Source: Candidatus Yanofskybacteria bacterium (GTDB taxonomy: Bacteria > Patescibacteriota > Minisyncoccia > 2-02-FULL-40-12 > GWA2-44-9). From it: a stretch of DNA of 64,000 nt. The notes under the pieces are model-generated. The model was not told the origin of the DNA and ran no database searches. It saw only the letters and a list, made by a program, of their open reading frames with translations. The stretch covers positions 2,885-66,884 of the forward strand of contig JACPNL010000019.1 in assembly GCA_016185505.1 (NCBI GenBank). Reading direction: 5' to 3'. Both the position numbers and the translations under genes were made by a program. Of this stretch, positions 415 through 62,075 are shown piece after piece (the first letter of the stretch is position 1; the number at the start of each line of letters is the position of its first letter).

Positions 415-1296
415 AAATTGGGCCGTACTCGAAGTAATTCGAGTTGGTAAGTTGGATTCCAATTTGCAACTTCAGCTAAAAACGGTGAAGTCATAATAAA
501 GTCAACCCAGATGTGTTATGATAATACCGTGGGAAGTAAGAGAAACTTTATACAGTATGCTATTATCACAAAGACAAACAGATATACTCATTGGTACAAT
601 TTTAGGCGACGGCCATTTGGAGAAAAATGGCCACGGTGTTCGCTTAAAAGTGGGTCATGGTAAAAAACAAACAGAATATACTTATTGGAAATATTTTGAA
701 ATGAAAAACTTAACTCCAAGTCCGCCACGATCAGTTAAAGAGTTTCATAAAAGCAGAAAAATGTTTGATGAAAGTGTGCATTTCGCAACTTTTTCTGACC
801 TCGAGCTAGTAAAATGGCGTGATTTATTCTATGAAAGTGGCGTTAAAGCAATACCCAAAAATATAAGCGATATTCTAAGGTCGCCCTTATCGTTAGCAGT
901 TTGGTATATGGACGATGGCTATAAGAGAAATGACTGCAATGCCTTAAGAATAAGTACAGATTCTTTTTCTCTTAATGATCATCACTTATTGGTCAATTGT
1001 TTGGAAAAGAATTTTGAAATTAACGCCCAGATCCATAAAAAAGACAAGACCAATAATATTTATATACCCAATAAATTTACTAAAAAGTTTTGTGATATTG
1101 TTAGACCATATATTGTTGATAGTTTATTGTATAAAGTTTCTCTTGCCCCGTAACGACTTTGTTCTTAATGAACAGGATAATTAACGATGAAGCGAAAGTC
1201 GATGGTTAATTATAAAAGGCTGACACCCCCTAATTAAATTAAACTTAGTGGGTGAATGTATAGTCTACACTTCTAGTGATAGAAGATTATTGTGCG
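415..1296 (+). other. Group I intron 1 in 23S rRNA (after GATGTCGGCTC) carrying a LAGLIDADG ORF
   Basis: Exon sequence breaks at 414 and resumes at ~1299. Intron core motifs are shared with the other introns: AATACCGTGGGAAGT, CCCCGTAACGAC, TATAGTCTACAC...TAGTGATA. Boundaries are approximate. Confidence 0.6.
518..1153 (+). CDS. LAGLIDADG homing endonuclease (two-motif type)
   Basis: Motifs LIGTILGDGHL and AVWYMDDGYK. The ORF lies inside 23S intron 1. Confidence 0.8.
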   Translation: MIIPWEVRETLYSMLLSQRQTDILIGTILGDGHLEKNGHGVRLKVGHGKKQTEYTYWKYFEMKNLTPSPPRSVKEFHKSRKMFDESVHFATFSDLELVKWRDLFYESGVKAIPKNISDILRSPLSLAVWYMDDGYKRNDCNALRISTDSFSLNDHHLLVNCLEKNFEINAQIHKKDKTNNIYIPNKFTKKFCDIVRPYIVDSLLYKVSLAP

Positions 1297-1329
1297 GCTT
1301 ATCCTGGGGGTGAAGAAGCTCCCAAGGGT

Positions 1330-2187
1330 GAAAGAACAAACTCGCCCATCTAGAAGAGATTCTAGATAAAATAACCGACTAATAACGGTGGAGTCGTAAT
1401 TAAATTTATGTTAAAATTAATATGAATTTAAACGATAATACCGTGGGAAGTTTAAGGCAAAAAATAGATTTAAGCGATAGGGAAATGAGTGTTTTAATCG
1501 GCACCATTCTTGGCGATGCATATATTGAACAGTATCCCAAAGATGCTCGGATTAGTATTATGCATTCACTAAAACAAAAAGAATTTGTCGAATGGAAATA
1601 CAAAGAGTTGGGAAGATTCGTGAAAATGAAACCAATGCAGTCAGAATACTTTGATCCCAGATATGGTAAGAAGTATTTTTGGCGGAGGTTTCAGACTAGA
1701 AGATTTCCGGAATTTAAGGAATTGGCCGATATTTTCTACGTTGGAAAAACAAAAATTATTCCCCGTACTATCAGCCAAATATTAACACATCCATTAGCTC
1801 TCGCGGTTTGGTATATGGATGATGGCGGAAGAAGAAAGGACTGTCACGGAATGTTTTTGAACACATTAAGCTATTCAAAACAAGAACAGATAGTGCTACA
1901 AAAATGTCTCCTAAAAAACTTTGGAATTCACACAAGAATCCATTGGGTTACTGATGGATTCAGATTGTATATCCCAACGGCAGATGCTAAAAAATTCAGC
2001 ACTCTTATCGGTCCATATATTATCCCATCCATGATCTATAAATTACCTTATAACCCCGTAACGACTGAATCCGCCGGAATATGGCGGAGGAGATAGATTG
2101 AAATAATATCTATCAAACGTCGGGCCCGTCTCTCATGGAGAGCGGAGCAAGGTATAGTCTGTGCTCTTAGTAATAAGAGAAACACAC
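1330..2187 (+). other. Group I intron 2 in 23S rRNA (after CCCAAGGGT) carrying a LAGLIDADG ORF
   Basis: Exon breaks at ~1329 and resumes at ~2188 (GGCTGTTCGCC). Contains CGACTAATAACGGTGGAGTC and the TATAGTCTGTGCTCTTAGTAATAAGAG core. Confidence 0.55.
1422..2096 (+). CDS. LAGLIDADG homing endonuclease (two-motif type)
   Basis: Motifs LIGTILGDAYIE and AVWYMDDGGRR. Paralogous to the ORF at 518. Confidence 0.8.
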   Translation: MNLNDNTVGSLRQKIDLSDREMSVLIGTILGDAYIEQYPKDARISIMHSLKQKEFVEWKYKELGRFVKMKPMQSEYFDPRYGKKYFWRRFQTRRFPEFKELADIFYVGKTKIIPRTISQILTHPLALAVWYMDDGGRRKDCHGMFLNTLSYSKQEQIVLQKCLLKNFGIHTRIHWVTDGFRLYIPTADAKKFSTLIGPYIIPSMIYKLPYNPVTTESAGIWRRR

Positions 2188-2237
2188 GTTGGCTGTTCGC
2201 CAATTAAAAAGCTACGCGAGCTGGGTTCAGACCGTCC

Positions 2238-3018
2238 GATTACAAATCATCGGGGCGGCTCTGTCAAGTAATTGACAGATGTTAAATCGACTCATATCGG
2301 AGAAGTCCTATTGCTTCAAAACCAACCGAAGCAAGGGTAATTCCGAGGGAAGTCTTCCGTTCAAATTTTTGGAAAAGAAAAACCGCGATTATTTACTCGC
2401 GGGCGTGGTCGGCGATGGGCACTGTGCAATAGAAAGCATTATGCCACTCATATAAGCACCATTCCACGAAGAAGAAGGCAGTAAAGAAGAAGGCAATGAT
2501 AGATGGAAAAAATCTGCAGCATTCTCTGCGTCTTTATCAGATAAAGAAAAACTAGCCAGCTCTTTTTTGTCGATACTGATAGTAAATTTATAGTTCATCT
2601 TTCGTTGCCTATTGTAAATATTAAGAACTTGAATCAGGGTATTAAATTATTTAAATTTTGTCAATTAAAAATTGACTCCAAAAATTTGAACGGAATGACC
2701 CCGTAGAGACTTGTTGAGTTAAACTCAACGGACGAAATCTATAAATTTCGTAATATGTCGATCAACCATTGTTTTGCATTGGGAAACTCTAAATTCAAAA
2801 CCCTAAACTCTAAACAATATCAAATATCAAAATCTAAAACTCAAAACTTTTAAGATTTTAAATTTGTAATTTGTTTAGAAATTAGAAATTAGGATTTAGA
2901 AATTCCACTGCTTTGCAGTGGCTGGTGGTATAGTCCATACTCTTAGTAATAAGAGATGTTCAGAGTTCAGATTTCAGATATCGGACATCCGATATCTGAT
3001 TTCCGATGTCTGATTATG
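2238..3018 (+). other. Group I intron 3 in 23S rRNA, ORF-less and filled with low-complexity repeats
   Basis: Exon breaks after GACCGTC (2237) and resumes at CGTGAGACAG (3019). Shares the TATAGTCCATACTCTTAGTAATAAGAG core, but no LAGLIDADG ORF remains; instead it holds AT-rich tandem repeats and the palindrome CAGATATCGGACATCCGATATCTG. Confidence 0.5.
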
Positions 3019-3081
3019 CGTGAGACAGGTTGGTCCATATCTGGTGCGGGCGTTAATACTTGAGAGGAGTTGTCCCTAGTA

Positions 3082-3965
3082 AAGTATTGCTACTTCACGG
3101 AGTAATCCGTGATGACAACGCGACTAATAACGGTGGAATCTTAATATTTCTGGATCTGTTGATAGCCATAATTTCAATCGGTCCGTAAATTGTGGTACAA
3201 TTTACTTGAGGACCAGAAACTATTAAGACAATACCGTGGGAAGTCGATCTAAAATTGATCTAGCGTATATGGCCGGTTTTCTTGATGGAGACGGAAGCTT
3301 GATGTTCCAACTCAAGAAACGCAAAGACGGCAAAAAGAAATGGCGGTTTATGTGCACTGTCTGTTTTTATCAAGACAGCAGGCACGATAAGACACTTCAT
3401 TGGATAAGAAGCAAGCTAAATATTGGCTATGTGTCTAAACGCAATGATGGAATGTCAGAGTTGAGAGTAAATGGGTTTAAACAAATCCGAGATATTCTCA
3501 ATGACTTATTGCCATTTGTGAAGTTTAAAAGAGTCCAGGCAAATGCTATGCATAAAGCCACGACCCTTTTGAGCAAAAAGCATAGTGGTCAACTTAATAA
3601 AAATGAACTTATTAGATTAGTTGATTATATTCTAGAAATTCAGAAGAAGAACTATGTAACAAAACGCAAGAAAGGCAGAAAAGAGTTATTATCAATTTTG
3701 GGTTTGACCCCGTAACGACTTGTTCTCGCCAACGGCGGGACGGATAGAAGTTTTTTAGCTTCTATAATATGTCGCTGACCAATGGAGGTTGGAGATTAGA
3801 GATTGGATGTTGGATTTATTCTAACTTCTCATTTCTAACCTCTAACTTCCGTTGGTTAAAGATATAGTCTACACCCGTAGTGATACGGGATAATCAATTC
3901 GCAATTCGCGGCATTCGCATATCATTTGTAGATTTGCATTATGTTGCGAGCGGAGAGAGCATGTG
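3082..3965 (+). other. Group I intron 4 in 23S rRNA (at CCTAGTA^CGAGAGGACC) carrying a LAGLIDADG ORF
   Basis: Exon breaks at ~3081 and resumes at 3966 (ACGAGAGGACCGGG). Contains CGCGACTAATAACGGTGGAATC, CCCCGTAACGAC and a CTAACYTC repeat block at 3781-3860. Confidence 0.55.
3236..3715 (+). CDS. LAGLIDADG homing endonuclease (single-motif type)
   Basis: Motif LAYMAGFLDGDGSLMF. Starts directly after the conserved intron motif ATACCGTGGGAAGT (GTG start, or ATG at 3269). Confidence 0.7.
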   Translation: MGSRSKIDLAYMAGFLDGDGSLMFQLKKRKDGKKKWRFMCTVCFYQDSRHDKTLHWIRSKLNIGYVSKRNDGMSELRVNGFKQIRDILNDLLPFVKFKRVQANAMHKATTLLSKKHSGQLNKNELIRLVDYILEIQKKNYVTKRKKGRKELLSILGLTP

Positions 3966-4242
3966 ACGAGAGGACCGGGATGAACGAACCTCTGGTCTGC
4001 CAGCTGTTCTGCCAAGAGCAGCGCTGGGTAGCTATGTTTGGTTCTGATAAGCGCTGAAAGCATATAAGCGCGAAGCAGGCCTCAAGATTAGGTATCGGGA
4101 CGCAAGTCCCAAAATTTCCTTGTAGATGACGAGGTTGATAGGGCTTAGGTGTAAGCGCCGTGAGGCGTTGAGCCGAGAGCTACTAATAAATTTACTTTGA
4201 GTAATTTGTCGCTCCTCACTTTTGTTCGGAGCTCTTCCTACA

Positions 4243-4338
4243 AATTACGAATTTTTACAAATATACGAATGGGTTGAAAAATTTTAATTTAATCCTTCCT
4301 TCAGTATTCGTAAATTCGTACTGATTAGTAATTCGTAG
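4243..4338. repeat. TACGAAT / ATTCGTA repeat block in the 23S-5S spacer
   Basis: ATTACGAATTTTTACAAATATACGAATGGG ... TATTCGTAAATTCGTACTGATTAGTAATTCGTAG. The same motif family recurs at 23991, 28553 and 59885. Confidence 0.5.
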
Positions 4339-4460
4339 TAAAGGAGCCGCGAGCGGAAGCGAGGGGCGACGGGTGATTTCGGTATAAAATTAAGTTTTTT
4401 CCCCAAGAGTGAAACGAAGAGGGTGCGTTCCACCCCTTTCTGGAAAATAAAAATTATTGG

Positions 4461-4936: not shown

Positions 4937-4966
4937 TTGACAGAAATTGAGTTGTGGATATAATTT
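4937..4966 (+). promoter_or_regulatory. Sigma70-like promoter (TTGACA-N17-ATAATT) plus an AAGGAGGA RBS at 4988
   Basis: GTTGACAGAAATTGAGTTGTGGATATAATTTG, followed by the RBS AAGGAGGA 6 nt before the ATG at 4999. Confidence 0.4.
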
Positions 4967-4998: not shown

Positions 4999-5274
4999 AT
5001 GGAAGAAAGGGCAGATCAGAGAGTTTCGGTAGAATTGCCGAAAGAGGTTGTCTTAAATTTCCGGGACCAATGTCATCGCGGCGCTCATCCCTGGAAGAAG
5101 ATTTTCGGGAGAATCCAGGGTTTCATGATGGCTGAAGTAGAAGTAGTGCGCTGGTGTCCAATTTGTGGCTCAGTTGTGATTGATCTTGAATGCGACGACA
5201 GAATCCAGCCGGGTGCTATCAGAAAGATTGAATCTTCGCAAATTTCCAGTCGAATGTCATACAAGGGCACATAG
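4999..5274 (+). CDS. Hypothetical small protein with a CxxC zinc-ribbon-like motif
   Basis: 91-aa ORF with a good RBS and the CPICGSV...C motif. No family recognised. Confidence 0.45.
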   Translation: MEERADQRVSVELPKEVVLNFRDQCHRGAHPWKKIFGRIQGFMMAEVEVVRWCPICGSVVIDLECDDRIQPGAIRKIESSQISSRMSYKGT

Positions 5275-5307
5275 CCCTTTTTTGTTTGAGTATGTTAGAA
5301 TAATGCT

Positions 5308-6114
5308 ATGGAACAACGGACTCAAAAGCAGTTAATTATCGGCCTTATTTTTGTTTTGATCATCGGCGTTATCGGCTATGGATTTGTTGACTATTTCTTT
5401 CTTACCGAGCCGACCTGTTTTGATAATGTCCAGAATGGTAAGGAAGATGGAGTTGATTGCGGCCTTTTTGCTTGCGGAGTTACCTGTGAACCAGCGATAG
5501 TACCTCTAAGCATAGTATCCCAGAAACTGATAGAAGTAAGGCCGGGGGATTACGACTTTATCGCCCAGATCCATAATCCTAACTCTTTGTTAGGCGCGTC
5601 AAGGGTCAGATATGAGCTGAATCTTGGCGCGGTTAAGACAACGGGCGCGTTTTTCATCCTTCCTGGACAAACTCGTTTTGTAATAATTCCGGGCATTCAT
5701 GCCGACGGCGGCGTATTAAGTGGTGCTTCTATTGATATCACTGAAGCGGAATGGCAGAAGGTTGAATCGTTTGAAAATATAAATTTTCCTGTCCAGAGAA
5801 AGAACTATACGGTGGTAGATAGGAACGGCGTTTTCAGCGAGCTTGAGGCGGTAATATTGAACAGTTCCGATTTTGATTTTGATAAAGTTGAAGTGGGAGT
5901 TATATTATTCTCGACTGGAGGAGAAATTGTCGCCGTCAATAGAACCGATATACGCACTTTTCTTTCCAGGACCGAAAGATCTTTCAAGGTAAGCTGGCCG
6001 GCAGAACTTCCAGAAAGTGTAAGGCAAGACATTGAGGTCTTAACTAATGTTTTCGAGAATGCTAATTTTATCCGGCGTTATGGGACACAGGAGAGGTTTC
6101 AAAAATACTACTAA
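5308..6114 (+). CDS. Hypothetical membrane-anchored protein
   Basis: 268 aa with an N-terminal TM helix LIIGLIFVLIIGVIGYGF. No recognised family. Confidence 0.5.
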   Translation: MEQRTQKQLIIGLIFVLIIGVIGYGFVDYFFLTEPTCFDNVQNGKEDGVDCGLFACGVTCEPAIVPLSIVSQKLIEVRPGDYDFIAQIHNPNSLLGASRVRYELNLGAVKTTGAFFILPGQTRFVIIPGIHADGGVLSGASIDITEAEWQKVESFENINFPVQRKNYTVVDRNGVFSELEAVILNSSDFDFDKVEVGVILFSTGGEIVAVNRTDIRTFLSRTERSFKVSWPAELPESVRQDIEVLTNVFENANFIRRYGTQERFQKYY

Positions 6115-6121: not shown

Positions 6122-6268
6122 TAAATTATTCTAATTGACCTAATTATTCTAATTATTCTAAAGAAATCCCAATATCAAAATGTCCAATGTCTAAAATTAT
6201 TTAGTTATTGGGTCATTAGGATTTATTTAGGTCAATTAGGTTAATTAGTATAATTAGAATAATTTTCA
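6122..6268. repeat. Dispersed palindromic intergenic element (TAATTATTCTAATT family), copy 1
   Basis: CTAATTATTCTAATTATTCTAAAG...GTCATTAGGATTTATTTAGGTCAATTAGGTTAATTAGTATAATTAGAATAATT. Near-identical copies lie at 29817-29957 and 46100-46350. Confidence 0.6.
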
Positions 6269-7392: not shown

Positions 7393-7859
7393 TACCGCAT
7401 TTGACAGTGGGTCAAGATTTTGATATTCTGTTGACAGCAGTACTTGACAAGTTTTTACAGAGTAATAAAATAGAAAGATTGTCTTTAAAAAGCGGCCAAG
7501 TATGCGGGGAAATGGCCTCCGGAGCCATTTTGGGCATGATATTGAAAACCATAGCCGAAGCGCTATAAAAATAAGAAATCGAGAAATGAATCGCAGAAAC
7601 ACAGAAGGAACGGAAGACGCGGAACAGGAAAGAAATTAAGATATTAAGAAATAGAGAAATTAATAAGCAAAATATCGTAAAAAGATATCTTAATTTCTAA
7701 ATTTCTTAGTTTCTAAGTTTCTGATTTTCTTGTCTCCCCATTTTAATTAAAATTTAATAAAAATATTAGTAACGCTGTAAAGTAGCGGATTTGTTTTGTT
7801 GCCACAAATTTTCACACTGACAGATACGGACAGGAAACGGACAATAACTGACAACTAAA

Positions 7860-11045: not shown

Positions 11046-11190
11046 TTTCAACCAATTCAACTAAATGTAAAATGCAAATATCAAAAATCAAAATGACAAT
11101 TCAAAATGTAAAGAATAATCAGAAATCAGAAAATTTTAAATTTTATACTGTCATTTTACACTTTGATTTTTAAATTTTAAATTTCTTATC
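11046..11190. repeat. AAAATGTAAAATGACA-family AT-rich inverted repeat element in the rpoB-rpoC spacer
   Basis: AAATGTAAAATGCAAATATCAAAAATCAAAATGACAATTCAAAATGTAAAG...TATACTGTCATTTTACACTTTGATTTTTAAATT. Related copies lie at 32043-32190 and, in frame, inside uvrC at 33541-33600. Confidence 0.5.
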
Positions 11191-14100
11191 GTGGATTTAT
11201 CCAGCATAAAACTTAAAATCGCGTCTCCCGAGGATATTTTGTCTTGGTCATACGGTGAGGTCACGAAGCCCGAGACCATCAACTACCGAACCCAGAAGCC
11301 GGAAAGGGAAGGTCTTTTTTCAGAGGCCATTTTCGGGCCGGTCAAGGATTGGGAATGCTATTGCGGAAAATATAAAAGGATAAGGTACAAGGGTATCATC
11401 TGCGACAGATGCGGTGTTGAGGTTACCAGATCCATAGTCAGACGAGAAAGAATGGGTCACATTAAACTGGCCGCGCCGGTGGCTCATATTTGGTTTCTGC
11501 GGGGCGTTCCTTCCAAGATAGCCACCGTTTTAGGCGCCAGTTTACAGGAACTTGAAAAGGTCGTCTACTTCGCGAGCTATATAATAATGAAAGCGAATGA
11601 AGACCTGAAAGCGGAAGCGATGAAAAGGATTGAGAACGAGTTTAAGACAAAGATCAAGAATTCTAAAAATGAAGCCGAACAAGAGAGTCTGAAAGAACAA
11701 AAAGATAGGGAGAAGAATAATTTAAGGAATTTAAGAAAATATCAGATTGTTTCGGAGCTTGATTTCCGCGACCTGTCTCTAAAATACGGGGAGGTGTTTG
11801 AGGCGGGCATAGGCGCGGAGGCGATAAAGCGTTTGCTTGAAGAGATAAACTTCGAAGACCTTGTTGCCGAAATAGAAAGCGAAGTAAAAAGCGAATCGAA
11901 TCCATTAGAGCAAAGAAAGCTGACAAGACGCTTGAGATTCATAAAAGGAATGAAGAAAGCGGAGATAAGGCCCGAGTGGATGATTTTGAGCACATTGCCG
12001 GTCATCCCCCCCGCTTTGAGGCCGATGGTACCTCTGGACGGTGGCCGCTACGCGACGTCAGATCTTAATGACCTATACAGGAGGGTGATCAACAGAAACA
12101 ACCGCTTGAAGCATTTGCTCGAACTTAAGGCTCCGGAAGTCATTACAAAGAACGAAAAGAGAATGCTTCAGGAGTCGGTTGACGCTCTTATAGACAATGC
12201 AATGAGAAGGGGGGGAGGAGTTACTACTGCTGCTTCAACGGGGCAGAAAAGGGCGCTCCGCTCTCTTGCCGATATGTTAAAAGGCAAACAGGGAAGATTC
12301 AGGCAGAACTTGCTTGGAAAACGAGTTGATTACTCCGGTCGTTCGGTTATCGTTATTGGTCCGGAACTTGGTATTGCCGAGTGCGGTCTTCCCAAAAGAA
12401 TGGCTTTGGAACTTTTCAAGCCGTTCGTGATAGGGATTTTGATAAGAAAAGAATTGGCTCACAACATTAAATCGGCGAGCCGTCTGATAGAGCAGGAAAC
12501 ACCGGATGTCTGGACGGCATTGGAAGAAGCGATGGAAGGCAAGCTGGTATTGCTCAATCGCGCGCCGACATTGCATCGTCTGTCTGTTCAGGCATTTAAG
12601 CCGACACTAATAGAAGGTAAAGCGATCAAAATTCCCGCTATGCCCGTGCATGCTTTTAATGCTGACTTTGATGGTGACCAGATGGCGGTTCACTTGCCGC
12701 TTACGAACGAAGCTCAAAAAGAAGCCAAGGACTTGATGCTATCCAGCCACGGCATACTGAAGCCGGCCACGGGCGAACCCGTCGCTATACCGAGCCACGA
12801 TATGTCATTTGGAATTTATTTTATTACTAATATGCTTGAGAACGCCAAAGGCGAAGGCAAGATATTTTCTTCCCGGTATGAAGCGCTTCTTGCTCATGAG
12901 AACGAGTTTATTGATCTTCGGGCAAAGATAAAAATACCGAACCCCGACTATAAAGAGCCAGGCGACAGAGATTCCCGGCTCCGCACGGGAACCTTATCCG
13001 AGCAAGGTTCACGCCGAGGAACTTCGGCGGGAATCGCCTCAGGTAGCGACGCGGAGAAGATCATTGAGACAACCGTAGGCCGCGTAATATTCAACAAAAT
13101 ATTGCCTAAGGAATTTCGATATGTGAATAAAACCCTCACTAAACCCGACTTAAAAGCTATCAGCTCCGATATATGGGACGAATACGGCGAGGAAGTAATG
13201 GTGGATTTCTTAGACAAAGTTAAAAACCTTGGCTTTCACTATGCAACGGTATCCGGCGTCTCCTGGAGTATGAGTGATTTGAGAGTTCCTCAAGAAAAGC
13301 AGCAAATCATAGAAGAGGCCGACAGGGTTATAGAAGAGAACAGGCACTTGTACGAGAACGGCTTGTTGACAGACCATGAAAGAAAGTCAAAAGCGATTGA
13401 AGTATGGAACAATGCTAAAGCCAAACTTTCTGCGTTGGTAAAAAAAGAGTTGGCTATTCAGGACCCGGTTTATATGATAGTTGATTCCAGGGCCAGAGGC
13501 AGTTGGGGGCCAATCGACCAAATGATGGGCATGAGAGGTATCGTGGTTAATCCTTCAGGTGAACTCATAGAACTGCCTATCAGGAATTCTTTGAAAGAAG
13601 GGATGACATCTCTTGAGTACTTCATTTCTACTCACGGCGCCAGAAAAGGTCTAGTGGACACGGCTCTCAAAACAGCCGAGGCCGGCTACCTCACCCGTAA
13701 ATTGGTTGATGTGGCGCAAAGCGTGGTTGTGCTGGAAGATGATTGTAAAGATAAAGAAGGATATGTGGTTTACGCTGAAGACAAAAAAATAAACGGGGAA
13801 ACACTGGGCCGTCGTTTGAAAGGTCGGGTAGTGATGGAGGACTTAATAGATAAGAATGGCGAAGTTATCGTAAAAAAGGGTAAAATGGTTGACAAAGAAG
13901 CCGCGGTCAAAATAGATGAAGCCGGGATAGACCAAGCGAGGATAAGATCTCTTGTAAGATGTAAGGCGCTTAATGGTGTTTGTCGTATGTGTTATGGCCA
14001 CGATCTGTCAAAGGGCGAACTTATAAATATCGGAGAGGCCGTCGGTATTGTCACCGCGCAAGCGATCGGAGAGCCGGGGACCCAGCTTACAATGAGAACG

Positions 14101-17318: not shown

Positions 17319-17562
17319 GGGGAGTGAGACCGTCAATTAATTTTTAACATTGAAATCCTTTAACAAATCCTTTGATATTTGTTCATAATGCGGATAAAAA
17401 TTCAGCAACCGTTCCTCCCTCCCCAGTTTCAGAAAACTGGGGAGGGATTTTCCGGCTAAATTTTTATTTCCGCCTGCTGGTGGACCGCATTATCTCTCAA
17501 ATATCTTAGTATTTGTGCCAAAGGATTTCAGTTGCTAAAAATTAATTGACGGTCTCACTCCC
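17318..17562. repeat. Long imperfect inverted repeat (~75-bp arms, ~80% complementary) around a central hairpin; MITE-like element or giant hairpin
   Basis: Left arm GGGGGAGTGAGACCGTCAATTAATTTTTAACATTGAAATCC...ATAATGCGG. Right arm CCGCATTATCTC...GTTGCTAAAAATTAATTGACGGTCTCACTCCC. The centre holds the stem CTCCCCAGTTTTCAGAAAACTGGGGAG. Confidence 0.5.
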
Positions 17563-17612
17563 TGGATGTTTTGTGTGGTTTTGAAAATCGACTGTTCCCT
17601 TAGTTTTACTTT

Positions 17613-19004: not shown

Positions 19005-19046
19005 AATATCGAAATTTCGATATGTCGATATTTCGAAATATCTTTT

Positions 19047-19346
19047 GTGGCGACCATTTCTAAATTTGAGGACCTGATTTGCTGGCAAAAAGCCAGAGAG
19101 TTGGCCAATTTTATATTTGATATTACAGATAATGCTCAATTTAGGGACTTTGATCTTAAGCGCCAGATCAGACGTGCGGCAATTTCACCGATGTCTAATA
19201 TCGCGGAAGGTTTTGACAGAGGTACGAGAGGAGAGTTTGTTGATGCCTTGTTTATTGCTAAAGGAGAAGTTGGTGAAGTAAGATGCCAACTTTATATTTC
19301 AAGCGATAGGCGATATATCGAAATGTCTAAATATCGAAATTTCTGA
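19047..19346 (+). CDS. Four-helix-bundle protein of the 23S-rRNA-IVS / Avd-like family (TIGR02436-type)
   Basis: MATISKFEDLICWQKARELANFIFDIT...IRRAAISPMSNIAEGFDRGTRGEF matches the family signature (DL.vWQKA.EL; R.A.Si..NIAEG). It is flanked on both sides by ATATCGAAAT palindromic repeats (19003-19046 and 19312-19345). Confidence 0.7.
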   Translation: MATISKFEDLICWQKARELANFIFDITDNAQFRDFDLKRQIRRAAISPMSNIAEGFDRGTRGEFVDALFIAKGEVGEVRCQLYISSDRRYIEMSKYRNF

Positions 19347-19986: not shown

Positions 19987-20068
19987 GGACGCTTAGCTCA
20001 GCGAGAGAGCGCCGGGGAGGTCTTAGTGACCGAACTGGAGGTTGGAGGTTTGATCCCTCCAGCGTCCA
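19987..20068 (+). ncRNA. tRNA-like element (perfect 7-bp acceptor stem plus T-arm; no canonical anticodon arm)
   Basis: GGACGCT...GGAGG-TTTGATC-CCTCC-AGCGTCC-A. A D-arm is possible (GCTC/GAGC), but the ~34 nt between the D and T arms do not form an anticodon stem. Confidence 0.35.
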
Positions 20069-21014: not shown

Positions 21015-21117
21015 ACGCTTACGCTAGTACCGCTGAGTTAACGCTGATTTTTACGCTGATTCGACGCTGACTATCAGCGACTTATCGGCGTACCTATCAG
21101 CGACCCATCAGCGGTCT
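21015..21117. promoter_or_regulatory. rpsF-ssb intergenic array of CGCTGAT / ATCAGCG repeats (candidate operator)
   Basis: On the top strand there are 4x ACGCTGA(T/C) and then 3x ATCAGCG(A/G) in inverted orientation: TACGCTGA, AACGCTGAT, TACGCTGAT, GACGCTGAC, TATCAGCGA, TATCAGCGA, CATCAGCGG. Confidence 0.4.
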
Positions 21118-25788: not shown

Positions 25789-25880
25789 CTCTCTATGCAC
25801 ACAGTATACTAGCGGGCAACTAAGCTCGCTTTTGTTTTTTATTATTCGCTACTCCGCCTCACTACCTACCATATTTGCTA

Positions 25881-25914
25881 TTACACAAATTTATCATATG
25901 ATAAATTTGTGTAA
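25881..25914. repeat. 34-bp perfect palindrome TTACACAAATTTATCAT|ATGATAAATTTGTGTAA
   Basis: Exact reverse-complement symmetry. A near-identical 42-bp perfect palindrome, CTTATTACACAAACTAATCAT|ATGATTAGTTTGTGTAATAAG, lies at 26539-26580 on the other side of the ORF at 26051. Confidence 0.6.
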
Positions 25915-26050
25915 TCAAAAAAGAGATGAAAAGAAAACAAGTTTTTGCAAATAAACTTCTTAAGGTCCTTGTTGTCGGAGGAGAGTAGTTACTATCGCGG
26001 CAGTTAACCCGTTCTTCGGTCTTCTGGCTGCTAAGGTAATTGAAGAGGAG

Positions 26051-26500
26051 TTGAAAAAGAGAAAGTGGCAAAGATTTAGACGGGACTTATATTACTTAAA
26101 GCGTCGGGGCTTTATTGAAGCTAATCAAAATCTAGACGGTTCCTATTTGGTAAGGGTTACTTCTACCGGAAAGCGGCAGGCCAGGAAATACGAGTTGGAT
26201 GATATTGTCATAAAGAGTCCTAAAAGGTGGGACAAGCAATGGCGGTTAGTAATGTTTGATATTCCAGTTGTCAAACAAAAAGGAAGATTGGCTCTGTTGT
26301 CTAAATTGAAAAATCTTGGATTTATAATGCTTCAGAAAAGTATTTGGACGCATCCTTTTGAATGTCAGAACGAAGTCGCTGTTTTGGCTAGGGCTTTTGA
26401 GGTTGATAAGTACGTTCACCAACTTACTTGTGATAATATTTCAGCAAGAGAATATTTAAAGAATGAGTTTGAAAAAAGAAACAACACAAAATTGAGTTAA
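26051..26500 (+). CDS. wHTH plus Cas2/VapD-like-fold protein (PaaX-like architecture?), hypothetical
   Basis: N-terminal winged-helix-like region (LYYLKRRGFIEANQNLDGSYLVRVTSTGKRQARKY), then WRLVMFDIP...GRLALLSKLKNLGFIMLQKSIWTHPFE, which resembles the Cas2 beta1 / loop / GxxxQxSVF pattern. Confidence 0.45.
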   Translation: MKKRKWQRFRRDLYYLKRRGFIEANQNLDGSYLVRVTSTGKRQARKYELDDIVIKSPKRWDKQWRLVMFDIPVVKQKGRLALLSKLKNLGFIMLQKSIWTHPFECQNEVAVLARAFEVDKYVHQLTCDNISAREYLKNEFEKRNNTKLS

Positions 26501-26538: not shown

Positions 26539-26580
26539 CTTATTACACAAACTAATCATATGATTAGTTTGTGTAATAAG
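26539..26580. repeat. 42-bp perfect palindrome, partner of the one at 25881
   Basis: CTTATTACACAAACTAATCATATGATTAGTTTGTGTAATAAG. Confidence 0.6.
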
Positions 26581-29814: not shown

Positions 29815-29816
29815 AA

Positions 29817-29957
29817 AATTATTCTAATTATTCTAATTGCTCTAATTATTCTAAATAATACCCAATATCTAATTTCTGAATGTCTAAAAAATATTTAGTC
29901 ATTTAGTCATTAGGATTTATTTAGGTCAATTAGGTTAATTAGAATAATTAGGTTAAT
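29817..29957. repeat. Dispersed palindromic intergenic element (TAATTATTCTAATT family), copy 2
   Basis: ATTCTAATTATTCTAATTGCTCTAATTATTCTAAATAATACCCAATATCTAA...GTCATTAGGATTTATTTAGGTCAATTAGGTTAATTAGAATAATTAGG. Confidence 0.6.
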
Positions 29958-31769
29958 TTATCTCCACACTCTTTTCGTGTCTATATACCACCCCTCAATA
30001 TTTATGAATCTGTCCGAAGGCAACGATATTAATTTGCCATTTGAGCTTTTTATTTTTTTGGCTTGGCCGTGAATGTAAAGCGGATTATATAGAAATACCG
30101 CCGGAATGTCTTCTATGGCTAATTTTTGGAAGTCGTCGTATTTCTTGGCCCGCTCAAGAGGGTTAAGCGTCTGTCGAGCGTCCTCAAGGAGAGTGTCGGC
30201 GGCTTTATTATCGTAAAGGGCGAGGTTCAGGCCGGGGTCTCTTTTTTGCGAGGAATGCCACAAGCTGAAAGGGTCAGGGTCTATGTTGAGCACCGTTCCG
30301 AAAAGCAATGCTTCGTAGTTCCTGTCCTTTATCGTTTGCTGGAGTTCTGGCGTAGGCAGGACTTCAATGTCAACTTGGGCTCCGACGTCTTCCCACTGCT
30401 CTTTTATTATTTTAGCAACTTCCGTCAGTTCAGGCCAGGTTGATGTGGTGATCTTTATGCTCAACCTCTGGTCTTTCTTGGACAAAATACCGTTCTCGTT
30501 TGCTTTCCACCCCGCTGTTTCAAGTATCGTTTTTGCCAGTTCAGGGTCATGTTCATATTTTTTAACGCTATTCGGTATGTCGAGGACTCCTCCCATCATC
30601 GGAGAGTGTACGGCAACGCCCCTTGATCCCAAGACCTTTTCTATCAGGGTGTTTTTGTCGGTGGCGTGACTTAAGGCCAAGCGTACGTTCTTGTCCGATA
30701 GTATGGCGCTCTTGTTCTGATTAAAGAAAACGGCAAAGTAGCGGGGGAGTTGGAGTTCTCTTAGGTTGAGACGCTGTTTGAATTTGGTTCTCTTTAAGTT
30801 ATCTGGTGAGACAAAACTTAGTCCCTCTATCTCATTTCTGTTGTAAGCATCTATCATCTCATCTTCGGAAACATAGAATTTTATCTCTATGTCATTGATG
30901 AACGGCCTGCCCCCGTAGAAGTCCTTATTAGCCAACAGTTGATATGATCGTATCCTGCCATCCTTGTCTTTTTTTAGCCGGTCGAATTTGTAAGGGCCGG
31001 AACCGATTGGCTTTAAGTTGAATTCTGAAAGAGCAAAGTTTATTGGTTTGACATCTTGCCAAATGTGTTTAGGTAGTATCTTCACGGTCAGATTATTGAG
31101 GAACTGGGCGTACCTTGCCTGGAGTTTGAACATCACCGCAAGGTCATTGACCTTTTCGATTTGGACGCCCTGCCAGTTGATTCGCTGAGGGCTTCCGTAA
31201 TCGGAATTCTGGGCCGTCTGGATGGTAAATATTATATCGTCGGCGGTAACCCGCTTGCCGTCATGCCAGCGGGCGTCTTCTTTTAAGTAAACGGTGTAAT
31301 TCAGGCCGTCGCTTGATATCTCATATGACTGCGCCAAATCGGGCACTATCTTGCCTTCGCCATTATACTCAAGAAGTCCGGAGTAGATGAGATATACCAG
31401 GTCTCTGTCGGTGTCGTTGGCTTGGGAAAGGAGGGGATTGATGTGGCGCGGTCCGTTAACCATACCTTCGGTGAACTTGCCGCCGTAATCAGGAGCTTGG
31501 ACGGTAAAGTGGAAATATGTTGTGAAGGGTATGGCAACAATAGAACCCAGTATCACAAGAACCAAGGCCGCGACAATATATCTTTCCTTCCTGGATAGCG
31601 CTTTGGGAATAAGCCGTATTTTGAGCTTGTTCTGGACCTTTTTGGCGAGGGTTTCTCGTATGCCGTGATTTTTGTCTTCCCCGTTCTTTAGACCAAAAAA
31701 ATCATCGAGTTGGTTGTTATCGTTCACGCGAACATAATGCAAAACTACAAATCTGCGCGAATGCCGCAA
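29958..31769 (-). CDS. ABC transporter substrate-binding protein, family 5 (OppA/DppA-like)
   Basis: SBP_bac_5 homology across ~500 aa after an N-terminal TM anchor. Confidence 0.8.
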   Translation of the reverse strand: MRHSRRFVVLHYVRVNDNNQLDDFFGLKNGEDKNHGIRETLAKKVQNKLKIRLIPKALSRKERYIVAALVLVILGSIVAIPFTTYFHFTVQAPDYGGKFTEGMVNGPRHINPLLSQANDTDRDLVYLIYSGLLEYNGEGKIVPDLAQSYEISSDGLNYTVYLKEDARWHDGKRVTADDIIFTIQTAQNSDYGSPQRINWQGVQIEKVNDLAVMFKLQARYAQFLNNLTVKILPKHIWQDVKPINFALSEFNLKPIGSGPYKFDRLKKDKDGRIRSYQLLANKDFYGGRPFINDIEIKFYVSEDEMIDAYNRNEIEGLSFVSPDNLKRTKFKQRLNLRELQLPRYFAVFFNQNKSAILSDKNVRLALSHATDKNTLIEKVLGSRGVAVHSPMMGGVLDIPNSVKKYEHDPELAKTILETAGWKANENGILSKKDQRLSIKITTSTWPELTEVAKIIKEQWEDVGAQVDIEVLPTPELQQTIKDRNYEALLFGTVLNIDPDPFSLWHSSQKRDPGLNLALYDNKAADTLLEDARQTLNPLERAKKYDDFQKLAIEDIPAVFLYNPLYIHGQAKKIKSSNGKLISLPSDRFINIEGWYIDTKRVWR

Positions 31770-32042: not shown

Positions 32043-32190
32043 AGTCGGCTTAATTAAAAATGTAAAAATCAAAATGTAAAATGACAGTTTAAAATGTCAA
32101 AATTGTTTTTCATTCTCGGGAACATTTTTTAATTTTGCATTGTAATTTTTCATTTTGATATTTAAATTTTACATTAAAGTTCGTGAGCTA
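32043..32190. repeat. AAAATGTAAAATGACA-family AT-rich repeat element
   Basis: AAAAATGTAAAAATCAAAATGTAAAATGACAGTTTAAAATGTCAAAATTG...TTTTGCATTGTAATTTTTCATTTTGATATTTAAATTTTACATT. Confidence 0.5.
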
Positions 32191-45649: not shown

Positions 45650-45803
45650 CCAAGAGCGGTTCTTGACACCGCTCTTTTATTTGCTAAAATGTTAACCGTT
45701 AGCGCTTAGACGGTCGGACTGCTAAATAGAGCGTAGAACGTGGAGGGTGGAACGTGGTTTTACTAACAACTTTCTACTATCTACATTCTACATTCAAGGT
45801 CGT

Positions 45804-46099
45804 ATGAAAATACAGCCATTAAGCGATCACATCTTGGTCGAACCCATTAAGGAGGAAAAGAAAAAGGGCGGCATAATCCTCCCTGACACTGTTGAAAAAG
45901 AACGGTCTGAAAAAGGCAAAGTTGTTGCTGTCGGTCCGGGCAAACGGGCAAGTTCATCAGCCGGCGAAGGAAAACGTGTGCCCCTAGATGTCAAAAAGGG
46001 CGACGTGGTGCTTTTCACCAAATACAGCCCCAATGAAGTTAAAGTTGACGGGAAAGAATATCTGGTCATTAAAGAAGATGATATATTAGCAATTATAAA

Positions 46100-46103
<4 letters not shown>
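45804..46103 (+). CDS. groES: Co-chaperonin GroES
   Basis: [14 protein letters not shown]...GGIILPDT...GKVVAVGPG. The tracked ORF begins at 45747, but the conserved start is M at 45804. Confidence 0.9.
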
Positions 46104-47994
<1,891 letters not shown>

Positions 47995-48037
47995 AAACTA
48001 AAAAATAAAGTAATTTAGAAATTGAGAAATAAAGACT

Positions 48038-48080
48038 CAAAACACGGCCACCAAGCCGTGTTTTGAGTTTAAATTTTTTT
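48038..48080 (+). terminator. Rho-independent terminator after groEL
   Basis: CAAAACACGGCCACCAAGCCGTGTTTTGAGTTTAAATTTTTTT. Confidence 0.6.
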
Positions 48081-57429: not shown

Positions 57430-57469
57430 AAATTAAGAAATTCAGAAATAAAGACATTAAGTAATTAGT

Positions 57470-57535
57470 GAGGTCGAACCTCCCTCGGGAGGTTCGACCC
57501 CTAACCCTCGCTCTTGCGGGGGTTTTTAATTAATG
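57470..57535 (+). terminator. Tandem hairpin terminator
   Basis: GAGGTCGAACCTCCCTCGGGAGGTTCGACCCC followed by CCCTCGCTCTTGCGGGGGTTTTT. Confidence 0.5.
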
Positions 57536-59730: not shown

Positions 59731-59884
59731 AGAAATTTAGATATTAAGATATTAAGAAATTCCCTGCGGGGAATTTTTTCTGGACATTTTTTATGCATTG
59801 GTATATAATTGAATAACATTTAAATATTCAGGCATCTCAAAGGGACCAAAAGTCCTTTATAATAAATACTTTCTTAAGTATTAG

Positions 59885-59913
59885 TATATTCGCACAAATT
59901 CGTAATTCGTAGA
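59885..59913. repeat. TACGAAT-family repeat immediately upstream of dnaG
   Basis: GTATATTCGCACAAATTCGTAATTCGTAG. Confidence 0.45.
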
Positions 59914-59914
59914 T

Positions 59915-61968: not shown

Positions 61969-62075
61969 ATCAAATATCAAATATCAAAAATCAAAACGAC
62001 AAATCAAAATTCAAAATTTCTAATCTTTCATATGTATTTCTAATCTTTGATATTTAATTTTTAATTTATATAATC

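What the first reader, a model, noticed from the sequence alone, without database searches (positions are those of the whole stretch)
6122..6268. Three copies of a ~145-bp palindromic intergenic element (REP/MITE-like); the groES-groEL copy carries a 133-bp CG-rich insert
Near-identical elements built from TAATTATTCTAATT / AATTAGAATAATTA inverted termini around a TCATTAGGATTTATTTAGGTCAATTAGG core occur at 6122-6268 (before ftsW), 29817-29957 (between two minus-strand genes) and 46100-46350 (inside the groES-groEL operon spacer, so certainly transcribed). The third copy contains an extra segment (46165-46297) with a striking roughly 6-7-nt periodicity of CG dinucleotides (ACGCGT ATCGTC TGACGG TAGCGT TAAGCGT...), unlike the rest of the genome. 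Three copies in 64 kb implies a high genome-wide copy number.
Basis: seen in the sequence. Interest (0 to 1): 0.5.

Follow-up and report, generated by a model that had tools for sequence, protein, structure and literature searches.

The report
Dispersed word-built hairpin repeat in CPR genome
Three copies of a ~145-bp non-coding hairpin-forming repeat, whose arms are arrays of a 9-base "word", sit between housekeeping genes of an ultra-small (Candidatus Yanofskybacteria) bacterium; it is a real but fairly ordinary kind of selfish or regulatory repeat, with an unusual build and a second periodic hairpin nested in one copy.

Summary
Three copies (6122-6268, 29815-29959, 46096-46350) are 83-87% identical and share an invariant 37-mer. 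Each folds into a ~60-bp imperfect AT-rich hairpin (z about -7 to -8).

Each arm is four 9-nt CTAATTNNN / NNNAATTAG words. The groES-groEL copy has its apex replaced by a ~130-nt coaxial quasi-palindrome with CG dinucleotides spaced 7 nt apart (0/5000 shuffles match).

The host is a CPR bacterium; its GroEL is 100% identical to a Ca. Yanofskybacteria MAG protein. Full-length family members occur at six further non-orthologous housekeeping junctions in other metagenomes, in both orientations. A Curtissbacteria genome shares the 25-mer core.

Orthologous spacers in relatives are empty, hold one-armed CTAAT arrays, or hold different word-palindromes.

The window holds about 11 other two-armed word-palindromes and several one-armed arrays, forming at least two more multi-copy families. 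One has an arm inserted in frame in uvrC; a single palindrome has a gene in its loop.

Best reading: a dispersed, non-autonomous MITE/REPIN-like repeat, co-transcribed within operons. An RNA punctuation role is inferred, not shown.

MITE and REP hallmarks (target-site duplication, GTAG/CGTC tag, transposase) were not found. Genome-wide copy number could not be measured.

The parts
6122..6268 (+). Family-A copy 1 (whole element), between ORF 5308-6114 and ftsW; sense to transcription
   Evidence: D2, D3, I3; -43.7 kcal/mol, z -7.3; nhmmer 116.5 bits
6124..6161 (+). Copy 1 left arm: 4 x 9-nt words AATTATTCT/AATTGACCT
   Evidence: (period 9, 4.2 copies)
6212..6248 (+). Invariant 37-nt core (inner right arm), copy 1
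   Evidence: longest invariant run, P=7e-4 by column shuffling
6227..6265 (+). Copy 1 right arm: 9-nt words AGGTCAATT/AGGTTAATT/AGTATAATT/AGAATAATT
   Evidence: 6227-6248 and 6234-6264, period 9
29815..29959 (+). Family-A copy 2 (same + orientation by sequence), between the minus-strand SBP (29958-31769) and PGI (28834-29808) genes; antisense to transcription. The SBP stop codon TAA is formed at the element's right terminus
   Evidence: I7; -39.8 kcal/mol, z -8.4 on the minus strand; 111.3 bits
29906..29942 (+). Invariant 37-nt core, copy 2
46096..46350 (+). Family-A copy 3 with nested insert, filling the groES-groEL spacer. The groES stop TGA (46101-46103) lies inside the first word AATTGACCT
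   Evidence: I2; -89 kcal/mol, z -7.9
46164..46296 (+). Nested CG-anchored heptamer quasi-palindrome that replaces the apex. Its inverted arms are 46178-46205/46255-46282 (79% complementary) and 46213-46227/46246-46260 (87%), coaxial with the host hairpin
   Evidence: unique in held data; GC 53%; CpG o/e 2.2; 7-nt CG periodicity, 0/5000 shuffles; inverted arms; no Rfam family; no ORF of 20 aa or more; its own fold is not significant, z -1.6
46297..46333 (+). Invariant 37-nt core, copy 3
45663..45690 (+). groESL promoter-like site TTGACA-16-TGnTAAAAT, followed by a CIRCE-like operator at 45699-45725
   Evidence: the operator was read from the sequence
45804..46103 (+). groES (Cpn10)
46360..47994 (+). 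groEL; 100% identical to MBI2674537.1 (Ca. Yanofskybacteria MAG)
48033..48070 (+). Canonical GC-rich intrinsic terminator after groEL, which closes the operon that contains copy 3

Best explanation
The three copies belong to one family of a dispersed, non-coding, non-autonomous hairpin repeat (MITE/REPIN-like in behaviour) in a Candidatus Yanofskybacteria (CPR) genome.

Anatomy. Each element is about 140 bp and is built from the word CTAAT. The left arm is four 9-nt CTAATTNNN units followed by 7-nt CTAATGN units. After a short apex, the mirror-image ATTAG arrays form the right arm.

Placement. The element fills the space between the stop codon of one gene and the start codon of the next, in either orientation, and sometimes supplies the stop codon itself.

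Consequence. Because it sits inside operons (groES-groEL here), it is co-transcribed. On either strand it can fold into a ~60-bp imperfect AU-rich stem-loop.

Shown: the family is copied between unrelated loci and between genomes, and orthologous slots in relatives are empty or carry other word-palindromes.

Inferred:
- The copying mechanism. No target duplication or transposase was seen. The invariant 37-nt inner right arm is the best candidate for a recognition site. Slippage and arm-to-arm templated repair would explain the gain, loss and shuffling of units.
- The effect on the host. By analogy with REP/BIME and Correia elements, the hairpin would act as RNA punctuation: partial termination, an RNase III-type processing site, or protection of the 3' end.

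The insert. The extra ~130 nt in copy 3 is a second quasi-palindrome of the same design, made of CG-anchored heptamers. It replaced the apex coaxially, either by nested insertion or by breakage and fold-back repair at the palindrome centre.
For: Repeat family is real:
- establish the repeats.
- The alignment of 9 members has 79% mean column identity and 76-91% pairwise identity.
- Window copies are no closer to each other than to copies from other metagenomes.

Dispersal to non-orthologous housekeeping junctions:
- dsRBD (RNase III C-terminus)-rpsP, def-fmt, Mur ligase-5'-3' exonuclease, class II (D/K/N-type) tRNA synthetase-scpA.
- Of the 11 copies scored, 6 are sense, 4 antisense and 1 (L012) probably sits between convergent genes.

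Patchy taxonomic spread:
- Among 185,579 species genomes, only one (Curtissbacteria) holds the 25-mer, inside a related word-palindrome.
- nhmmer gives E 1.7e-10 for that locus.

Slot turnover in relatives with 84-92% GroEL identity:
- groES-groEL spacers are 26, 40 and 42 nt with one-armed CTAAT arrays, or 129, 150 and at least 83 nt with other two-armed palindromes.
- The SBP-PGI spacer is 6 nt (empty) in L025 and holds different palindromes in L020 and L021.

Lineage-specific load: 0 long inverted repeats in 17 kb of L025, against about 11 two-armed word-palindromes in this 64-kb window.

Insertional behaviour of the class: a solo arm of a sister family is an in-frame 22-aa insertion in UvrC. 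It is absent in L020 and replaced by a GC-rich palindrome in L021.

Hairpin potential.

Co-transcription: promoter and terminator bracket groESL, and no + strand promoter lies in the spacer. The 12/12 consensus promoter at 4937-4964 lies upstream, with a terminator-like hairpin at 5263-5279 between it and ORF 5308-6114, so where the transcript through copy 1 starts is not settled. No comparably strong promoter-like site lies between that hairpin and ftsW; the best is a 10/12 match at 5879-5906 inside the ORF.

Sequence-specific constraint: a 37-nt invariant run, P=7e-4.

Insert: 7-nt CG period and coaxial inverted arms.
Against: - No target-site duplication is visible at any of nine junction pairs. 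The A/T-run termini limit resolution.
- No transposase or RAYT appears among the 38 window proteins screened. The rest of the genome could not be searched.
- There are no compensatory changes between arms. Left-arm middle triplets vary against a constant right arm, so perfect pairing is not selected.
- Forward and reverse RNA stabilities are similar and unrelated to transcription direction. Nothing therefore points specifically to RNA-level selection.
- None of the three copies is called as an intrinsic terminator.
- The same slots are filled repeatedly in different lineages, and CTAAT words recur upstream of groEL in all relatives. This could reflect function or in-situ growth rather than insertion.
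- The genome-wide copy number is unknown.
- The insert's own fold is not better than shuffles (z -1.6).
Confidence: 0.6

Rival explanations
1. Host-functional RNA hairpins that evolve in place. Each slot needs a long stem-loop (attenuator, RNase III site or 3' stabiliser). The sequence drifts by slippage and arm-to-arm correction. The similarity between loci would then come from occasional conversion rather than from a mobile element.
For: - The same slots hold palindromes in several relatives: groES-groEL in 4 of 7 genomes counting the window, and SBP-PGI in 3 of 5.
- Palindromes sit at classical operon punctuation points: rpoB-rpoC, dnaG-rpoD, 23S-5S and groES-groEL.
- T3-T6 runs follow the 3' side of the stem in the direction of transcription, shortest (T3) in groES-groEL (read).
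- One relative has an RNase III-type dsRBD gene next to a copy.
Against: - The slots are empty or tiny in other close relatives (26-42 nt; 6 nt).
- Density varies from 0 per 17 kb to about 1 per 6 kb.
- Both orientations occur.
- There is no covariation between arms.
- An arm sits in frame inside uvrC.
- Elements 76-91% identical lie at unrelated loci of different genomes.
Confidence: 0.15
2. Double-stranded-DNA protein-binding arrays. The CTAAT/ATTAG words, spaced 7-9 bp apart and facing each other, would be sites for an unknown DNA-binding protein (a nucleoid protein, or a recombinase/transposase acting in trans). The hairpin potential would be a by-product of the opposed arrays.
For: - Only the hexamer CTAATT/AATTAG is constant. 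The three middle bases of each unit vary freely and often do not pair.
- The 37-nt inner right arm is invariant while the rest diverges.
- Its 25-mer core recurs in distant CPR lineages, sometimes as a single arm without a partner (L002, L008).
- One-armed CTAATTT arrays occur in relatives.
- AATTAG and ATTAGA are the most noncoding-enriched hexamers in several of these genomes.
Against: - No candidate protein is known.
- Word spacing differs (7, 8, 9, 11 nt), and many unrelated words are used in the same genome.
- Stop-rich AT words are expected to be depleted in coding DNA anyway.
- The metagenome copies were ascertained through the 25-mer itself, which inflates its apparent conservation.
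Confidence: 0.12
3. 5'-leader repeat arrays that tune translation of the downstream gene, like the TAACTGA heptamer arrays upstream of start codons in Beggiatoaceae. The second arm would be secondary.
For: - Arrays end 5-27 nt before start codons that lack a Shine-Dalgarno sequence.
- L027 has (CTAATTT)x4 directly upstream of groEL.
- PMC4679880 describes intergenic heptamer arrays mostly within a few nt of start codons.
Against: - In the antisense copies and in the two-armed forms, the word next to the start codon is the complement (ATTAG).
- Sister-family arrays also lie right after stop codons next to terminators (47984-48048, 57427-57475, 59706-59762).
Confidence: 0.05
4. The CG-rich insert in copy 3 is an assembly artefact: a chimeric join inside a repeated palindrome of a metagenome-assembled genome.
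For: - The insert is unique in all held data.
- Its composition differs from the window average (GC 53%).
- Palindromic repeats are known to trouble assemblers (own knowledge).
Against: - Both flanks continue the same element in register, with groES and groEL correctly on either side.
- The insert is coaxially palindromic and has the same periodic-word design as other elements in the window.
- Analogous 'cargo in the loop' cases exist (19005-19346).
Confidence: 0.05

Closest known systems
Bacterial MITEs such as Neisseria Correia elements (CREE)
   Same: - About 100-155 bp, non-coding, with inverted arms.
- Dispersed in intergenic spacers, including inside operons.
- Co-transcribed into hairpins. 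Correia hairpins are RNase III substrates and can alter expression of neighbouring genes (own knowledge; the MITE reviews PMC3184786, PMC2229807 and PMC10969869 appeared in the search lists).
   Different: - No TA or other target-site duplication was seen.
- The most conserved part is a subterminal 37-mer, not the termini.
- The arms are arrays of a 9-nt word with a variable number and order of units.
- No cognate transposase is known.
REP / REPIN elements mobilised by RAYT transposases, and BIMEs of E. coli
   Same: - Extragenic palindromic repeats that form ~100-nt hairpins from two inverted halves.
- They lie between co-transcribed genes, and their positions recur between species while their sequences differ.
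- Proposed roles are mRNA stabilisation and termination (REPINs: PMC3116915; the REP roles are stated in the PMC3733652 abstract).
   Different: - REPs are GC-rich 20-40-mers tagged with GTAG or CGTC (PMC3733652). These arms are AT-rich and carry no such tag.
- No RAYT gene was found in the window.
- The copy number here is unknown.
Rickettsia palindromic elements (RPE)
   Same: - Palindromic repeats that insert both between genes and in frame within protein-coding genes of a reduced genome (own knowledge).
- A sister-family arm here adds 22 aa in frame to UvrC.
   Different: - No intragenic copy of family A itself was seen.
- RPEs are not built from short tandem words.
Intergenic heptamer arrays (TAACTGA repeats of Beggiatoaceae, cyanobacteria and Bacteroidetes; cyanobacterial STRR)
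   Same: - Short 7-nt words repeated 2-6 or more times in intergenic DNA, often just upstream of start codons.
- Patchy distribution that suggests horizontal spread.
- Function unknown (PMC4679880; STRR from own knowledge).
   Different: - Those are direct arrays (one inverted case among 170 sets in the Beggiatoaceae genome studied, BOGUAY).
- Here the arrays face each other to make long hairpins, and whole ~140-bp units are copied between loci.
23S rRNA intervening sequences (IVS)
   Same: - Long AT-rich stems that are transcribed and excised by RNase III, sometimes carrying a PF05635 four-helix-bundle gene in the loop (own knowledge).
- This window has exactly such a gene inside the loop of a word-palindrome, at 19005-19346.
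   Different: - Family A copies lie between protein-coding genes, not in rRNA.
- Excision has not been tested.
Repetitive hairpin-forming elements of sponge mitochondria (RHE)
   Same: Families of small hairpin repeats that invade intergenic regions of compact genomes without a known enzyme (PMC2800124, listed).
   Different: - Organellar, and GC-rich in many cases.
- No word-array arms have been reported (the paper was not read in full).

Membership tests
MITE | Small non-coding element with terminal inverted repeats | tested here: met
   About 145 bp; no ORF of 20 aa or more in the copy 3 spacer, the only copy scanned for short ORFs; arms of 57-70 nt, 76-77% complementary.
MITE | Target-site duplication flanking each copy | tested here: not met
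   Inspection of nine left/right junction pairs found no shared direct duplication. The A/T-run ends could hide a 1-2 bp duplication.
MITE | Multiple dispersed copies | tested here: met
   3 copies in the window. 6 further full-length members at non-orthologous loci, plus shorter or one-armed relatives.
MITE | Cognate autonomous element (transposase) with matching ends | not testable with these tools
   No transposase domain appears in the 38 window proteins screened.
REP / REPIN | 20-40-nt GC-rich imperfect palindrome with a GTAG or CGTC tag at one end | tested here: not met
   The arms are AT-rich CTAATTNNN arrays without either tag. GTAG and CGTC each occur once inside the insert only, which is what chance predicts.
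REP / REPIN | Association with a RAYT (Y1 transposase) gene flanked by the repeats | not testable with these tools
   No such gene is in the window. The genome is not searchable.
REP / REPIN | Two inverted halves that form one long hairpin; extragenic location | tested here: met
   All family-A copies are intergenic.
Intrinsic (Rho-independent) terminator | GC-rich stem of 5-20 bp with a short loop, followed by a U-tract | tested here: not met
   The terminator scan calls none of the three copies, although it finds canonical terminators elsewhere, for example 48033-48070. The stems are AU-rich with a T3-T6 tail.
Known RNA family (Rfam) | Match to a curated covariance model | tested here: not met
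   No hit at the gathering threshold. The best hit in the groESL spacer has E=0.37 (CRISPR-DR33, 18.9 bits against a gathering score of 39).
Structured functional RNA (generic) | Compensatory base changes that maintain pairs; strand-specific G-U pattern | tested here: not met
   Left-arm triplets vary against an invariant right arm. Forward and reverse folding energies and G-U counts are similar and unrelated to transcription direction.
RPE-like intragenic palindromic element | In-frame insertion in protein-coding genes | tested here: inconclusive
   Not seen for family A. Seen for a solo arm of sister family C in uvrC (33537-33591), which is absent from the L020 orthologue.

The most novel reading that the evidence does not exclude
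Family A may be one visible member of an undescribed class of 'word-array palindromes' in CPR (Patescibacteria) genomes. These would be elements built from opposed arrays of 7-11-nt words around a self-complementary anchor (AATT, CG, TCGA, TTAA).

On this reading they would:
- propagate between loci and between distant CPR lineages without a conventional transposase, for example by replication template-switching or by recombination anchored on shared words, or through an unknown protein that reads the invariant 37-mer;
- grow from their centres and capture cargo there (a CG-heptamer hairpin here, and an IVS-protein gene after recA);
- be tolerated in essential operons, rRNA and even coding regions because the cell's dsRNA processing turns them into operon punctuation.
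Probability: 0.2. Interest if true: 0.7.

Novelty: new variant of a known kind. Interest (0 to 1): 0.42.

Why it matters
CPR bacteria have some of the most streamlined genomes known. Yet about 3% of this window, roughly a quarter of its non-coding DNA, is made of these word-built hairpins. They sit inside essential operons (groESL, rpoBC, dnaG-rpoD, the rRNA operon) and once inside uvrC.

If they are selfish, they show that small mobile DNA thrives in reduced episymbiont genomes without visible transposases.

If they are used by the host, they would be a lineage-specific form of operon punctuation in organisms whose gene regulation is almost unknown.

Practically, they break assemblies, mark strains, and can be mistaken for regulatory RNAs. 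No description of such elements in CPR turned up in six literature searches.

Tried and rejected
- **Finding the source genome.** Exact look-ups of the window GroEL and of P0001 found no contig. The genome scan returned only a Curtissbacteria locus. A genome-wide census was therefore impossible.
- **Target-site duplications.** None is consistent across junctions.
- **Rfam at relaxed threshold and short-ORF scan of the insert.** Nothing was found.
- **BLAST of the insert against all held DNA.** Only 11-17-nt chance hits.
- **Promoter and terminator scans at all three copies.** No call above background.
- **Strand asymmetry (G-U against A-C) as a test of RNA-level selection.** No signal.
- **Covariation between arms.** None.
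- **Orientation tied to the replication strand.** All three A copies are on the + (positive GC-skew) strand. However, the family-C copies at rpoB-rpoC and secG-holin are inverted relative to each other, and for palindromes the 'A-rich arm on the left' is invariant under inversion. I dropped the idea.
- **Phage carriage.** The core is absent from IMG/VR and so is the insert. The left-arm pattern hit only plain (TAATTATTC)x6 tandem arrays in giant-virus-like contigs, which I judge coincidental.
- **TIGR-Tas arrays and Borg tandem repeats.** I considered both and rejected them, because period and architecture differ.
- **Resemblances noticed by eye, with no support.** These were a DnaA box (TTATNCACA against TTATTCTAA), an IHF site, T3/SP6/K11 phage promoters (AATTAACC, ATTTAGGT), and a sigma-70 -35 (TTGACC) plus -10 (TAGAAT). 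None met its full consensus or the tool's threshold.
- **attC/integron sites.** The flanking genes are housekeeping genes, not cassettes.
Full report
**Observation**

- The repeat finder groups their right halves at 85-90% identity and their left halves at 73-81% (D2, D3).
- It finds each to be an inverted repeat with arms of 57-70 nt, 76-77% complementary (I2, I3, I7).
- A 25-mer from the right arm occurs 3 times against 0.00 expected.
- A 37-mer is invariant in all three copies.
- With the insert removed, the copies are 83-87% identical.
- Each folds as RNA far better than dinucleotide shuffles. Copy 1 gives -43.7 kcal/mol (z -7.3), copy 2 on its transcribed minus strand gives -39.8 (z -8.4), and copy 3 gives -89 (z -7.9).

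**Anatomy**

The arms are not simple inverted termini. They are arrays of four 9-nt units (Tandem Repeats Finder period 9).
- The left arm reads CTAATT plus three variable bases (ATT, GAC, GCT, AAC, ACT, AGT, ATA, GAT).
- The right arm reads the mirror, three bases plus AATTAG.
- Further in, the units shorten to 7 nt (CTAATGN / NCATTAG), down to an apex of the form CTAAAA-N-TTTTAG.
- Only the hexamer is constant. The middle triplets of the left arm vary against an almost constant right arm and frequently do not pair, so there is no covariation.
- The number and order of units differ between copies.
- A profile of the family scores about twice as high in one orientation as in the other, so the element has polarity.
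- The 37-nt invariant run in the inner right arm is longer than expected if variable sites were scattered evenly (P=7e-4).

**The insert**

Copy 3 lacks about 20 nt of the apex and has about 130 nt in its place (about 46164-46296).
- GC is 53% and CpG observed/expected is 2.2, against 1.19 for the window.
- Nine of 21 CG-to-CG intervals are exactly 7 nt, against 1.3 expected (0 of 5000 dinucleotide shuffles).
- It contains its own inverted arms: 46178-46205/46255-46282 (79% complementary) and 46213-46227/46246-46260 (87%). They are centred on the same axis as the host hairpin.
- Its stand-alone fold is nevertheless no better than shuffles (z -1.6).
- It is therefore a second quasi-palindrome of the same periodic-word design, anchored on CG instead of AATT.

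**Organism and setting**

- GroEL is 100% identical to MBI2674537.1 from a Candidatus Yanofskybacteria MAG, on a 68.7-kb contig.
- The 23S rRNA gene is interrupted by about 3.5 kb that carries three LAGLIDADG genes, which is usual for CPR bacteria (own knowledge).
- The window is housekeeping DNA: ftsW, rpoB, rpoC, ftsK, recA, ssb, rpsF, RNase J, pgi, secG, uvrC, groESL, pyrG, dnaG, rpoD.
- groES-groEL is bracketed by a strong promoter-like site (45663-45690), a CIRCE-like operator (45699-45725) and a canonical terminator (48033-48070). No + strand promoter-like site lies in the spacer, so copy 3 is very probably transcribed.
- Copy 1 lies downstream of a 12/12 consensus promoter at 4937-4964. 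A terminator-like hairpin at 5263-5279 intervenes, and no comparably strong promoter-like site lies between that hairpin and ftsW; the best is a 10/12 match at 5879-5906 inside ORF 5308-6114.
- Copy 2 has the same sequence orientation but lies between minus-strand genes, so it is transcribed antisense.

**The family elsewhere**

- The genome scan found the 25-mer in only one of 185,579 species genomes, a Curtissbacteria MAG. There it forms the right arm of a different word-palindrome whose left arm is (TAAATCC)x4 (nhmmer E 1.7e-10).
- The metagenome scan found 18 stretches.
- After merging duplicates, six are full-length family-A members at non-orthologous loci (L003, L004, L009, L010, L012, L013).
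- There are also a short form (L005), a solo arm and a short element (L008), a diverged form (L011) and a one-armed form (L002).
- At least five loci come from one pair of samples (Ga0209541/Ga0209542). Those samples also hold a GroEL 92% identical to the window's.
- Contexts are housekeeping junctions: dsRBD (RNase III C-terminus)-rpsP, def-fmt, Mur ligase-5'-3' exonuclease, class II (D/K/N-type) tRNA synthetase-scpA.
- Of the 11 copies scored, 6 are sense, 4 antisense and 1 (L012) probably sits between convergent genes.
- Elements fill the stop-to-start space. In several, the upstream stop codon lies inside the terminal word: TGA in AATTGACC, TAA in AATTAACC.
- No target-site duplication is apparent.
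- Window copies are no more alike than copies from different metagenomes.

**Orthologous slots**

I compared relatives with 84-92% GroEL identity.
- The groES-groEL spacer is 26, 40 or 42 nt with only a one-armed CTAAT array in L020, L025 and L027.
- It is 129, 150 or at least 83 nt with two-armed palindromes built from other words in L021, L028 and L026.
- The native leader just before the groEL ATG (TAAAACTAYT) is kept in the window, L025 and L021.
- The SBP-PGI spacer is 6 nt in L025. It carries unrelated word-palindromes in L020 and L021.
- Density differs sharply. There are no long inverted repeats in 17 kb of L025, against about 11 two-armed word-palindromes in this window.

**A wider class**

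Family A is not alone.
- The window holds at least two more multi-copy families. Family B uses AGAAATTA words (7622-7729, 47984-48048, 57427-57475, 59706-59762). Family C uses AAAATGN words (11062-11199 in the rpoB-rpoC spacer, 32052-32185, 33537-33591, 61957-62067 in the dnaG-rpoD spacer).
- It also holds single palindromes with TTCGTAA, AAATTTCG and CGCTGATTTAA words.
- The 33537-33591 arm is an in-frame 22-aa insertion in UvrC. It is absent in L020 and replaced by a GC-rich palindrome in L021.
- The AAATTTCG palindrome after recA carries a PF05635 '23S rRNA intervening sequence protein' gene in its loop. This is the same cargo-in-the-loop layout as copy 3.

**Interpretation**

The evidence fits a dispersed, non-autonomous repeat better than a conserved regulatory RNA.
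- The same sequence is found at unrelated loci and in different genomes.
- Slots are variably filled, and the load is lineage-specific.
- Both orientations occur, and the arms show no covariation.
- There is no strand-specific folding signal.
- A sister family behaves insertionally inside a gene.

How it moves is unknown. The hallmarks of MITEs (target duplication, matching transposase) and of REPs (GTAG/CGTC tag, RAYT) were not met or could not be tested. Unit gain, loss and shuffling point to slippage and arm-to-arm templated repair. The invariant 37-mer is the best candidate for a site read by some protein.

Because the copies lie inside transcription units, their hairpins must form in mRNA. 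A role as partial terminator, dsRNA-processing site or 3' protector is plausible by analogy with REP/BIME and Correia elements. It rests on inference only, since the terminator scan calls none of the copies.

Three rivals are not excluded:
- in-place functional hairpins;
- dsDNA protein-binding arrays;
- 5'-leader translation arrays like the TAACTGA repeats (PMC4679880).

**Novelty**

Six literature searches found no description of MITE/REP-like or word-array palindromic elements in CPR bacteria. The kind of element (a small palindromic intergenic repeat) is well known. The build is a variant: opposed arrays of a short word, nested periodic palindromes, and cargo in the loop. I rate it a new variant of a known kind, of moderate interest.

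Noticed in passing
window 19005-19346: A PF05635 '23S rRNA intervening sequence protein' gene (19047-19346, E 2.8e-26) lies directly after recA. It sits inside the loop of a palindrome whose arms (19011-19042 / 19312-19343, 88% complementary) are AAATTTCG word arrays. This is an IVS-like element outside rRNA.
   Followed up: partly
window 33537-33591 (inside uvrC, 32554-33981, minus strand): A solo arm of the AAAATGN word family is an in-frame 22-aa insertion (KNQNAKIKMQNDNSKCKNFKAE) in UvrC. It is absent in the L020 orthologue. L021 has a different, GC-rich palindromic insertion at the same site.
   Followed up: yes
window 7622-7729, 47984-48048, 57427-57475, 59706-59762; and 11062-11199, 32052-32185, 61957-62067: Two further multi-copy word-palindrome families. 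AGAAATTA words are mostly one-armed and abut GC-rich terminators. AAAATGN words occur in the rpoB-rpoC, secG-holin and dnaG-rpoD spacers. The rpoB-rpoC and secG-holin copies are inverted relative to each other.
   Followed up: partly
window 448-3947: The 23S rRNA gene is interrupted by about 3.5 kb that holds three LAGLIDADG endonuclease genes (518-1153, 1422-2096, 3236-3715). It also holds four copies, about 900 nt apart, of a 30-42-nt motif (GGTATAGTCT...TAGTAATAAGAGA). This suggests several tandem intron-like insertions. Word arrays also occur there (2784-3015, 3819-3849).
   Followed up: no
window 4238-4345 and 59856-59919: Palindromes or arrays built from TTCGTAA-type words, one in the 23S-5S spacer and one upstream of dnaG, are 75% alike (D11, I14).
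   Followed up: no
window 17319-17612: A 294-nt spacer after ftsK folds into one very long hairpin (arms 17320-17349/17533-17562, 97% complementary; z -13.7). It has a GC-rich terminator-like apex and is not word-built.
   Followed up: no
window 19987-20068 (+): A tRNA matches Rfam RF00005 at 44.2 bits, with 19 nt where the model has 9 in the anticodon loop, possibly a small intron. ARAGORN missed it, and so did the whole-window Rfam run.
   Followed up: partly
window 25879-25915, 26541-26577, 33320-33356: There are three copies of a 37-nt near-perfect palindrome (TATTACACAAAnTnATCATATGATnAnTTTGTGTAAT). Two of them flank a gene with a PaaX/Cas2-like domain (26051-26500), so they may be an operator or a bidirectional terminator.
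   Followed up: no
window 21015-21117: The ssb-rpsF spacer is a GC-containing palindrome of 11-nt words (CGCTGATTTAA / CTATCAGCGAC). CG-bearing word-palindromes are therefore not unique to the insert.
   Followed up: no
window 59915-61968: The primase dnaG is split into two abutting ORFs (59915-60514: zinc ribbon plus N-terminal core; 60514-61968: Toprim plus DnaB-binding domain). This could be a frameshift, a sequencing error or a genuine split.
   Followed up: no
window 45699-45725: A CIRCE-like inverted repeat, TTAGCGCTT-N9-GACTGCTAA, lies between the groES promoter and the gene. This suggests HrcA-type heat-shock control (sequence; consensus from own knowledge).
   Followed up: no
L001 6625-6790 (Curtissbacteria MFCA01000025.1; the same locus appears in L006, L007, L014, L018, L019): A distant CPR lineage carries the same 25-mer core inside a word-palindrome whose left arm is (TAAATCC)x4. 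This hints at horizontal spread or deep sharing of the core.
   Followed up: partly
L008 262-320 and 2148-2249: One contig has a solo right arm in a divergent promoter region and, 1.85 kb away, a short complete element. Each is followed by a small GC hairpin (ACCCNNG...CNNGGGT plus T-run). Next to it is an ORF whose sequence, by eye, resembles a type IV secretion coupling protein (TraD/VirD4); no family search was run on it.
   Followed up: no
L023 3569-3617, L024 9935-9983 (IMG/VR giant-virus-like contigs): Plain tandem arrays (TAATTATTC)x6 lie between convergent genes. The word is the same, but there is no palindrome, so this is probably coincidence.
   Followed up: yes
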